Part shown: positions 54,901 through 57,900 of the stretch, piece after piece
How the letters are laid out: each line of letters starts with the position of its first letter
How positions within the stretch are numbered: the first letter of the stretch is position 1
NCBI GenBank assembly: GCA_964016885.1
Contig: OZ024752.1
Span: 39,742,001-39,806,000, forward strand
Source: Eledone cirrhosa
Taxonomy: Eukaryota
Direction: 5' to 3'
Length of the DNA: 64,000 nt
Program-made: the position numbers and the translations under genes
Notes under the pieces: model-generated
The model's database searches: none
What the model saw: the letters and a program-made list of their open reading frames with translations, nothing else
What the model was told of the DNA's origin: nothing

Positions 54901-57900
54901 ATGCTTTACAGCATAGAGTTATGGCCCTTTACTTTCTGAGTTCAAATCCTGCCGAGGTTAACTTTACCTTTCATCCCTATTGGGTCGATAAAATAAAGTA
55001 CCAGTAATGCACTGGGTAATTGCTGGCCTTGTGCCAATAGTAGAAATAATTATTATTGATCAACTTTGCCTTTTACCCTTCTGGAGTTAATTTAAGACAT
55101 TTTCCGCTCCCTAAAAAAAATTAGAAACATGATTAGATTTTTAATACAATTTAAAATATTTTATTCCTAGGTTCGCGTTCGTGCCAGTGATGGTGGTATA
55201 CCATCTCGGTTTAATGAGACAACTGTACTAATTACTAAGACCAGTTCAAATCAAAATGCTCCAATATTCAATCCTACTGTTATTACTGTGAGTGTTTTAG
55301 AAACTATACCCTTTGGTGAGGTGATAAAAAAACTAACTGCTACAGATGCTGATGGATTTGTAAGTAATTTTCAGTTTTGTTACAATAGTGTTATATATTC
55401 ACATGTGCAAAAAACAAAAACATTTACACATATGCTCACATACATACATGCATGTATTAAATAGTTTGTAACATGTTATCAAACAATACAAAGAACACAC
55501 ACACATATATATATATATATATATATATATATATATATATATAACGGAGGAAATGTGGTAAGGAACCAGGTGGACCATAACGCACCAAAGTACTCAATAC
55601 TTAGGGTAGTAGAGTGGGTAATAGGAACGAGTAGGACCACGACGGCAGAGCTCAAGCCGTTTCGACGGCTATTTCTGGACAGCCGTCGGGATCCTACTCG
55701 TTCCTATATATATATATATATATATATATATATATATATATATATATATATAGATGAGATTCTACAGGACTAGAACTGTTTCATTCATTAGAAATCATCA
55801 GGAATCTGTATATATGTATATATATATGTATATATATATATGTATATATATATATATATATGTATATATATATATATATATATATATATATATATATATA
55901 TATATATATATATATATATACATATATATATATACATATATATATATACATATATATATATACATATATATATACATATATATATACATATACATATATA
56001 TATACATATATATATACATATATATATACATATACATATATATATACATATATATATACATATATATATATATATACATATATATATACATATATATATA
56101 TATATACATATATATATACATATATATATATACATATATATATATACATATATATATATACATATATATATATACATATATATATATACATATATATATA
56201 TACATATATATATATATATACATATATATATATACATATATATATATACATATATATATATACATATATATATATATATATATATATATATATACATATA
56301 TATATATACATATATATATACATATATATATATATACATATATATATATATATATACATATATATATATATATATATATACATATATATATATATATATA
56401 TATATATATATATATATATATATATATATATATATATATATATATATATATACACTTCGTTTTGGTATTTGTTTTGCAAGATTTTTTATCTGAAAACATG
56501 TGTTGAAACAAATATTGGTATACATAGAAATCCTGTTGGTTTTCACTTCAATTTATTATAAACTTCCAGTTGGTTAGTTTAATATCTGGATGGTTGTTTA
56601 GTTGTTTATTGTCAAAGCTCTTCTGTCACACATTCTGTGACCTCTTCAGTGACTAATTTGTTATTTTGTGTTTCCTTTGTTCTGTCCTACACCATCTTGT
56701 TTTTTGTGAGTTGTGTTACAAAAACAAGATGGTGTAGGACAGAACAAAGGAGAGACACGAAATAACAAATTAGTCACTGAGGAGGTGACAGAATGTGTGA
56801 CCAAAGAGCTTTGACAACAAACAAACAAACAACAATCCAATTATTAAACTAACCAACTGGAAGTTTACAATAAATTGAAGTGAAAACTAACAGGTGCGTG
56901 TCTTTTTATTGACAGCATGAGCTCCCCAACTAAAGTATAACAACACACATACACATATATATATATATATGGTGGCTGCCAACTCGTTTTCGAGTACGGC
57001 CACTACTTTATATCCATGTAGCAGAACCCTTACCGATGCGCTGAACGAGTGTGGCTTTTTAGTCCAGCCTGCGACTTGAAAACTCTGGTACAAACACTAC
57101 ACTTGTGACAATTATTGACACATAGTGCTGGGCCCATGGTACCATGTGACGACAAGTGCAGAGAGATCTCCAGATATAAAGCAATGCCTGTGCCGTGAAG
57201 CTTTTATAGTGAGCAAAGGCACTGCACAAAGCCAGTCCCACTCTCTTAACCAAGATGATATTTACCAAAAAGAAGAAAAAGTCAACATCATTGGATACCA
57301 TCAGGGTTGCAGGTGTTATATCAGAGTTTTCCTTCTCCTAGAATTCTGCCTTGACAAAGGCTAAGGGGTTATCTCTCCCGGTGATTTTGGATGGCCATTG
57401 ACTCTTAAGAGCTCCTTTGCCCTTTGACAGGTTTTGTTTTTAGTCCTGCAGGATGTCCAAAGTCACCCTCCTCACCAAGAAACCTTGGTGGGATTGCCAG
57501 TTTAGTCGCCAATGACCCGACCATGAGACAGGTTGTACTGGGATACATGTTACATACATACATCTATATATATATATATGTTTACGGTCATATCACGCTG
57601 AAAACATCGGTTCTCGTCTGATCACCGAAGTTAAGCAACGTCGAACCTAGTTAGTACTTAGATGGGTGACCGCTTGGGAATCCTAGGTGCTGTAAGCATT
57701 TACTCCAAGAGCGGTGCCCTAGCATGGCCTCAGCCGGATGGCTGGAACAGGTAAAAGTAAAAGAGATATATACACATACATACATCTGTATATCTATATA
57801 TATATATGTATACATACATACATCTATCTCTCTCTCTCTGTATATATATATATAAATATAAAATAAAATAAATAAGTCAAATATTTAAAATTTAGCTTCG

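What the first reader, a model, noticed from the sequence alone, without database searches (positions are those of the whole stretch)
55752..55808. A ~57-bp island in pure (TA)n that is almost exactly one complete hammerhead ribozyme
Seen: between two microsatellite tracts the only non-repetitive sequence folds (minus strand) into a 6-bp stem I, CUGAUGA, a 3-bp stem II, GAAA, a 4-bp stem III and GUA. Inference: a minimal ribozyme-only mobile unit or an extreme Penelope truncation.
Basis: partly seen in the sequence, partly recalled or inferred. Interest (0 to 1): 0.7.

Follow-up and report, generated by a model that had tools for sequence, protein, structure and literature searches.

The report
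Hammerhead stub of a Penelope retrotransposon
This 57-base island is the short front end of a very common jumping gene, present in thousands of copies, whose predicted self-cutting RNA motif sits exactly where its transcript likely starts, so it is most likely a by-product of copying and not a ribozyme that jumps on its own.

Summary
The hammerhead pattern is real (minus strand, 55807-55757), but the island is not unique. A 28-base piece of it has 17,029 exact matches in the genome. It is the terminal repeat (pLTR) of a young, (TA)n-targeting Penelope-like element with an intact 713-aa RT/GIY-YIG ORF bearing Hydra-clade motifs. Published Hydra hammerheads have the same U·U-closed short stem II.

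It is not a random truncation. In 100 tail-anchored copies, 37 begin within 11 bases of stem I's first base, which lies 30 bases below a TATA box at an initiator match; the cleavage site shows no clear excess. Of 75 insertion events, 33 are miniature head-to-head pairs, and 34 of 38 pairs have one long and one short tail. Best reading: reverse transcription starts just past the hammerhead and runs off the 5' end of uncut RNA; this island is a lone short arm. Transcription and cleavage are untested. Earlier scan notes report two-armed Hydra-type insertions elsewhere in this genome. Verdict: new family of a known kind, modest mechanistic value.

The parts
55752..55808 (-). Lone short pLTR arm (positions 0 to about +57/+61) of a Hydra-clade Penelope-like element. 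The 5' edge is 55808 or 55807; the 3' edge lies between 55753 and 55748 because the parent continues with TA-like bases
   Evidence: identical to the pLTR of ORF-bearing copies
55757..55807 (-). Type I hammerhead motif of Hydra-clade design, U·U closing a 3-bp stem II
   Evidence: published Hydra motifs; stem I covariation
55795..55801 (-). Catalytic core CUGAUGA
   Evidence: sequence
55764..55779 (-). Stem III with an 8-nt loop holding a central 4-nt palindrome, predicted to allow pairing of two copies
   Evidence: cofold -21.2 kcal/mol against -5.6 per monomer
55762..55763 (-). Putative self-cleavage site after GUA (between 55763 and 55762); cleavage untested
   Evidence: hammerhead numbering (established knowledge)
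55802..55808 (-). Inferred transcription start of the parent (A at 55807). The parent has an initiator match here and a TATA box 30 bases upstream; the TATA box is absent from this copy
55705..55751 (.). Pure (TA)n target tract on the 3' side of the arm
55809..56452 (.). Interrupted (TA)n tract on the 5' side; no partner arm seen in it or just beyond it

Best explanation
The island is the first 57-61 bases of the terminal repeat of an abundant Hydra-clade Penelope-like retrotransposon, likely inserted when the element's reverse transcriptase, primed by a nick in (TA)n, began just past the hammerhead and ran off the inferred 5' end of an uncut transcript. Shown: identity with the parent's pLTR, the parent's anatomy, three recurring 3' ends (about +57-61, +67, +135) that run into (TA)n, a sharp 5'-end cluster at 0 to +10, and long-plus-short pairing of inverted arms. 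Inferred: (a) transcription starts at the first base of stem I (TATA at -30, initiator match); (b) the protein primes both target strands at two internal sites of the RNA, as shown in vitro for the lizard Poseidon element; (c) when it does so on the 5' pLTR, both cDNAs run off after 60-135 bases and are joined head to head; (d) a lone arm such as this one results when the second arm fails or is later deleted from the palindrome; (e) the +57-61 end comes from the (TA)n primer pairing with a TA-like stretch of the RNA. The copy is probably a dead end, since it has neither the TATA box nor the tail, and it lies antisense to its host gene.
For: 17,029 exact matches of a 28-mer, reversed control 0. 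Full element L166: hammerhead, tail, 713-aa ORF, long UTR, TATA, hammerhead, (TA)n, with 5,966 bases between hammerheads. 12 of the 20 best-scoring ORF loci hold a 713-aa frame, 97.9-99.6% identical. Tail-anchored sample, first 100 of 9,036 matches: 37 5' ends at 0 to +10, 6 at -60 to -1, 4 at the cleavage window +44 to +48 (1.5 expected, p=0.07; two look like one duplicated locus). Hammerhead-anchored sample: 53 of 99 resolved ends at 0 to +10; 84 of 100 3' ends run into TA-rich DNA. 75 events: 33 short inverted pairs, 5 longer pairs, 9 lone short arms, 24 3' ends with UTR, 3 ORF-linked, 1 unresolved. 34 of 38 pairs are long+short and none long+long; in 31 of 33 short pairs the more 5'-complete arm starts at 0 to +10. 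TATA at -29 to -33 in 27 of 30 upstream variants and an initiator match in 27 of 30. PMC11167929: two internal RT starts, both strands extended, uncut RNA the dominant template.
Against: The start site is inferred only from motifs and copy ends. The in vitro work is on a different clade. The two samples overlap and come from the first 58 Mb of one contig, so they are neither independent nor genome-wide. The partner search looked only directly upstream, so some lone or UTR-bearing copies may have distant partners. Only 1 of the 18 ORF-bearing copies mapped starts at the inferred start site, and 29 of 100 tail copies start inside +11 to +97. The small excess near the cleavage site is not excluded. 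Clade assignment rests on motifs and visual comparison with published proteins, not on a tree.
Confidence: 0.65

Rival explanations
1. Solo pLTR left by deletion or recombination between the two short direct repeats of a full-length element that began at the hammerhead and ended just after the second one.
For: L166 is such a precursor: it starts about 2 bases before the hammerhead and ends at +67. Recombination or deletion was proposed for solo pLTRs in rotifers (PMC3846280, passages).
Against: Such precursors are rare (1 of 75 events; 1 of 18 ORF copies), whereas short twin pairs with the same 5' edge are 33 of 75. The shared repeat is only about 60 bases long and 6 kb apart. It does not explain the inverted pairs.
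Confidence: 0.12
2. Ordinary 5' truncation of a cDNA started at the element's 3' end, with the reverse transcriptase stalling or folding back at the hammerhead structure.
For: 5' truncation is common in PLEs (PMC8557442), and 24 of 75 events are 3' ends with variable UTR. Stem I arms are complementary and could aid fold-back.
Against: Ends cluster at the far (5') base of the structure, not where a polymerase would first meet it. The hammerhead fold is weak (-5.3 kcal/mol). The density falls sharply upstream (6 ends in 60 bases against 37 in 11), and the edge coincides with TATA and initiator spacing.
Confidence: 0.1
3. Short copies are a self-propagating mini-element: flanking (TA)n stands in for the TATA box, the initiator lies in the first bases, and the short RNA is copied in trans by the parent's protein.
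For: Short arms outnumber ORF-linked copies (42 of 75 events against 3). Three distinct short-ended islands with TA on both sides are among the loci held, this one included. One tandem of four ~200-base units exists (L017).
Against: Pairs need sequence up to and probably beyond +135, which the 57-base island lacks. Short copies carry the same loop II variants as long copies, with no short-only lineage seen. Junctions differ from copy to copy.
Confidence: 0.1
4. A retrozyme-like ribozyme unit released by self-cleavage and re-inserted through a circular RNA.
For: The core and stems are kept across subfamilies while loop II varies, so the motif is probably under selection in the parent.
Against: A cleavage-released unit would begin at +46 and hold a permuted hammerhead; this island begins at 0/+1. 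No clear end cluster at +46 and no 57-base tandem arrays in 75 events.
Confidence: 0.03

Closest known systems
Hydra clade of C-terminal EN+ Penelope-like elements (Craig et al. 2021, PMC8557442; introduction, section 11, passages, supplement part 2 and search hits read)
   Same: Single RT plus C-terminal GIY-YIG ORF, DKT, CxCx5C linker, CxxC and CxH, (TA)n targeting, hammerhead in the pLTR. Many listed Hydra hammerheads have CUGAUGAU...UGAA around a 3-4 bp stem II; Penelope-1_NV has the same stem III arms.
   Different: A different family from the listed Hydra-1_Obim (other hammerhead and protein). RWR in place of RWK. The unit is about 6 kb because of a roughly 3-kb microsatellite in the 3' UTR, against under 3 kb for most listed families. 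About 17,000 hammerhead copies.
PLE minimal hammerheads (Cervera and de la Pena 2014, PMC4209133; parts 1-2 of 4 read)
   Same: Hammerheads in pLTRs, mostly found as single motifs attributed to truncated PLEs or as close pairs on opposite strands; palindromic loop III; proposed dimers.
   Different: Has a full 4-bp stem III, a 6-bp stem I and a short stem II, and lacks the G10.1-C11.1 pair that the paper calls highly conserved. Copies are very uniform.
Poseidon_Ac internal initiation (Frangieh et al. 2024, PMC11167929; parts 1-2 of 4 read)
   Same: Two recurring 3' ends defining a tail, AT-rich target, no sign that hammerhead cleavage defines copy ends.
   Different: Other clade. Here the tail is 68-78 bases, the ORF starts 182 bases after the hammerhead start and not inside it, and run-off at a start site is inferred from genomic copies, not measured.
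Metazoan non-LTR retrozymes (PMC7229834, search listing only; preprint 10.64898/2026.07.22.740005, abstract and section 14 read)
   Same: Non-coding, hammerhead-bearing, related to PLE pLTRs.
   Different: Described as tandem arrays that likely move by rolling circle; this island is a single sub-unit piece of an autonomous element.

Membership tests
Type I hammerhead ribozyme | Core CUGANGA, GAAA and NUH with stems I-III in type I order | tested here: met
Type I hammerhead ribozyme | G10.1-C11.1 closing pair | tested here: not met
   U·U here; the same in many published Hydra motifs
Type I hammerhead ribozyme | Covariation of stems | tested here: inconclusive
   9 hand-picked related variants: 2 stem I pairs change on both sides, stem III never varies, one stem II pair is broken in 2 of 9
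Type I hammerhead ribozyme | Rfam hammerhead model match | tested here: not met
   none among 38 matches at E<=10
Type I hammerhead ribozyme | Self-cleavage after GUA | not testable with these tools
   needs an assay
EN+ Penelope-like element (parent) | Single ORF with RT and GIY-YIG endonuclease | tested here: met
   713-aa ORF with YRDD (120 of 120 homologs) and YIG at 602; Pfam gives only a weak GIY-YIG hit, E 0.012, and no RT hit
EN+ Penelope-like element (parent) | pLTRs, inverted 5' copies, tail on one arm only | tested here: met
Hydra clade | DKT, CxCx5C linker, CxxC and CxH motifs, C-terminal EN | tested here: met
   positions 116, 566, 666, 694; in 111, 116, 108 and 112 of 120 homologs
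Hydra clade | RWK motif | tested here: inconclusive
   RWR at 38; RWK in 73 of 120 homologs
Hydra clade | No CCHH finger inside GIY-YIG | tested here: inconclusive
   two cysteines lie there in this protein but are not conserved across 60 aligned homologs
Hydra clade | Insertion into (TA)n | tested here: met
   84 of 100 3' ends
Hydra clade | Phylogenetic placement with reference Hydra RTs | not tested
   reference proteins only compared by eye; no tree built
Naiad clade | N-terminal GIY-YIG, no canonical hammerhead | tested here: not met
   EN is C-terminal and a hammerhead is present
Non-LTR retrozyme | Tandem monomers delimited by ribozyme cleavage | tested here: not met
   single arm starting 45 bases before the cut site
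Non-LTR retrozyme | Circular RNA | not testable with these tools
   needs RNA data

The most novel reading that the evidence does not exclude
The miniature arms are a second-generation mobile element: a microsatellite supplies the TATA box, the hammerhead's first bases supply the initiator, and long-tailed minis template further hammerhead-only islands using the parent's protein. That would be a Pol II, ribozyme-headed mini-retroelement of 60-135 bases whose promoter is made by its own target site.
Probability: 0.1. Interest if true: 0.7.

Novelty: new member of a known kind. Interest (0 to 1): 0.35.

Why it matters
How Penelope-like elements, the sister group of telomerase, copy themselves and what their hammerheads do is still open. 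This family has thousands of short products whose ends can be read directly. They suggest that almost half of sampled insertions are two-armed copies of the RNA's 5' end, that the template is not cut by the hammerhead, and where transcription starts. With intact ORFs at hand this is testable in vitro. It also warns that lone genomic hammerheads in microsatellites can be copying by-products. The island itself is one ordinary copy.

Tried and rejected
Rfam: no hammerhead hit in the window or the local stretch. Folding z-scores were uninformative. My first guess of a Naiad parent was rejected: the endonuclease is C-terminal. A short antisense frame in the parent's UTR was considered and dropped. 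A DNA search with the tail returned nothing because very common words are skipped; this says nothing on abundance. Sequencing runs: no RNA holder listed. Contigs of the four runs did not cover the island (skipped as repeat), so no empty allele could be looked for. An extra G before +1, as a copied cap would leave, was seen in 7 of 14 arms, but several are explained by the partner arm or by duplication; suggestive only. Earlier-findings look-ups by sequence and by words returned nothing. Literature: a search for octopus + hammerhead ribozyme + Penelope gave only PMC8557442; searches listed no paper describing 5'-end clustering of short PLE copies at a start site, but the library lacks most subscription journals and I read only the parts named. 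An exact genome-wide count of hammerhead-only islands was not made.

Full report
Numbering. Position 0 is window 55808 and +1 is 55807, read on the minus strand.

1. Observation. My own descriptor finds 3 such motifs in the window and a mean of 0.005 in 200 shuffles. Rfam has no hammerhead among 38 matches at E<=10, and folding z-scores are near zero. The hammerhead fold (-5.3 kcal/mol) is close to the minimum-energy fold (-5.6), stem I pairs have probability 0.54-0.74, and two copies cofold at -21.2 through the palindromic loop III. One flank is 47 bases of pure (TA)n; the other is about 640 bases of interrupted (TA)n.

2. It is a repeat. A search of the 3-Gb own genome gave 273 candidates; all 40 scored were 98-100% identical. 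A 28-base piece has 9,568 + 7,461 = 17,029 exact matches, reversed control 0. Earlier scan notes call the genome octopus-type; I did not test that.

3. The parent. Longer copies extend upstream into a UTR and downstream into a tail, and some continue into an ORF. Of the 20 best-scoring ORF loci, 12 hold an unbroken 713-aa frame, 97.9-99.6% identical; this sample is biased to young copies. L166 is a whole element: (TA)n, hammerhead, tail, ORF, long microsatellite-rich UTR, TATA box, hammerhead, (TA)n, with 5,966 bases between hammerheads. Pfam gives only a weak GIY-YIG hit. 1,403 unnamed homologs reach E<=1e-20, full-length ones at about 38-45% identity. The protein has DKT, a CxCx5C linker, CxxC, CxH and RWR, which fit the Hydra clade as defined in PMC8557442 section 11. 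Published Hydra proteins look alike by eye, and many published Hydra hammerheads share the U-flanked short stem II. No tree was built. Among 9 hand-picked variants, loop II varies, the core holds, and two stem I pairs change on both sides; the rows are related, so this is modest support for selection on the fold.

4. Copy ends. I mapped the first 100 listed matches of the hammerhead pattern and the first 100 of 9,036 matches of a tail pattern. Both come from the start of contig C1 and overlap. 3' ends: 18 at +53-62, 35 at +64-74, 42 at +132-140, 2 at +87-88, and 3 running into the ORF; these alignment ends include a few TA-like bases shared with the target. 84 of 100 run into TA-rich DNA. 5' ends: 53 of 99 resolved fall at 0 to +10 in the first sample. 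In the tail sample, which does not require a hammerhead, 37 of 100 fall there, 6 at -60 to -1, 29 at +11 to +97, and 4 at +44 to +48 (1.5 expected, p=0.07, two apparently one duplicated locus). The cluster is therefore at the start of stem I and not at the cut site. Among 30 distinct upstream variants, a TATA box lies at -30 in 20 and at -29 to -33 in 27, and the initiator consensus (recalled, YYANWYY) is met in 27. I infer that +1 is the transcription start.

5. Events. The 100 matches collapse to 75 events: 33 short head-to-head pairs, 5 longer pairs, 9 lone short arms (5 long-tailed, 4 short-tailed), 24 3' ends with UTR, 3 ORF-linked and 1 unresolved. Of 38 pairs, 34 join one long tail to one short tail; none is long+long; 4 are other or unclassified. 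In 31 of 33 short pairs the more complete arm starts at 0 to +10. Partners were sought only directly upstream. Scaling 4 per 100 matches gives roughly 700 lone short-tailed islands (interval about 190-1,700); this is an estimate from one region.

6. Mechanism. PMC11167929 (parts 1-2 of 4) shows for a Poseidon element that the protein cuts AT-rich DNA, extends both strands, starts at two internal RNA sites that define the tail, and mainly uses uncut RNA; its hammerhead cleaves only with protein. Applied here by inference: starts at about +57-67 and +135 on the 5' pLTR of a transcript beginning at +1 give two cDNAs that run off at once and are joined head to head. A lone arm remains if one priming fails or one arm of the palindrome is lost. 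The island matches one hammerhead because the inferred start site and the first priming site bracket it. It lacks the TATA box and the tail, and it lies antisense in an intron of a cadherin-like gene, so it is likely inert. Against: the start site is not measured, only 1 of 18 mapped ORF copies starts there, and solo-pLTR deletion, stalling and a self-propagating mini-element are not excluded.

7. Comparison and novelty. Hammerheads in PLE pLTRs, single motifs from truncated copies and close opposite-strand pairs are described in PMC4209133. Inverted pLTRs with a one-sided tail and solo pLTRs are described in PMC3846280 (passages). The Hydra clade, with an octopus family, is in PMC8557442. Earlier scan notes describe two-armed insertions and tail hairpins in other families of this genome; I saw the first hairpin here and only a weak second one. 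What I did not find in the searches named is the clustering of short-copy 5' ends at a TATA/initiator site; supplements of the papers other than PMC8557442 were not read and may bear on this. Verdict: a real hammerhead motif, an ordinary copy of a new Hydra-clade family, with a useful genomic footprint of PLE copying. Interest 0.35.

Noticed in passing
window 55545-55705: A second (TA)n-inserted two-armed repeat, 973 candidates and 40 scored, with a bulged tail hairpin like the parent's and a GAAAC...GUC half-hammerhead but no CUGANGA seen in the copies viewed.
   Followed up: partly
window 3502 (+) and 57964 (-): Two more type I hammerhead motifs of other families; weaker core-only patterns at 5716 and 31900.
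   Followed up: no
window about 48700-62800 (+): Short exons of a cadherin-repeat gene (weak Pfam Cadherin hits, E 0.013 and 0.015); the island lies in an intron after the exon near 55171-55359, antisense.
   Followed up: partly
L166 (G000:C1:14204000-14212600): The parent carries roughly 3 kb of TG/TA microsatellite inside its own 3' UTR, recognisably shared between copies.
   Followed up: no
parent pLTR +73 to +91 (e.g. L065): Bulged hairpin 6 bases past the +67 end, as earlier scan notes describe; only a weaker, unlike hairpin follows the +135 end.
   Followed up: partly
L017 (G000:C9:42923952-42927016): Four tandem units of about 200 bases, each a long-tailed short arm plus (TA)n and 21 bases of flank.
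   Followed up: no
window 57580-57698 (+): 5S rRNA match, 104 bits.
   Followed up: no
window 56671-56753: Long near-perfect inverted repeat, probably a fold-back element.
   Followed up: no
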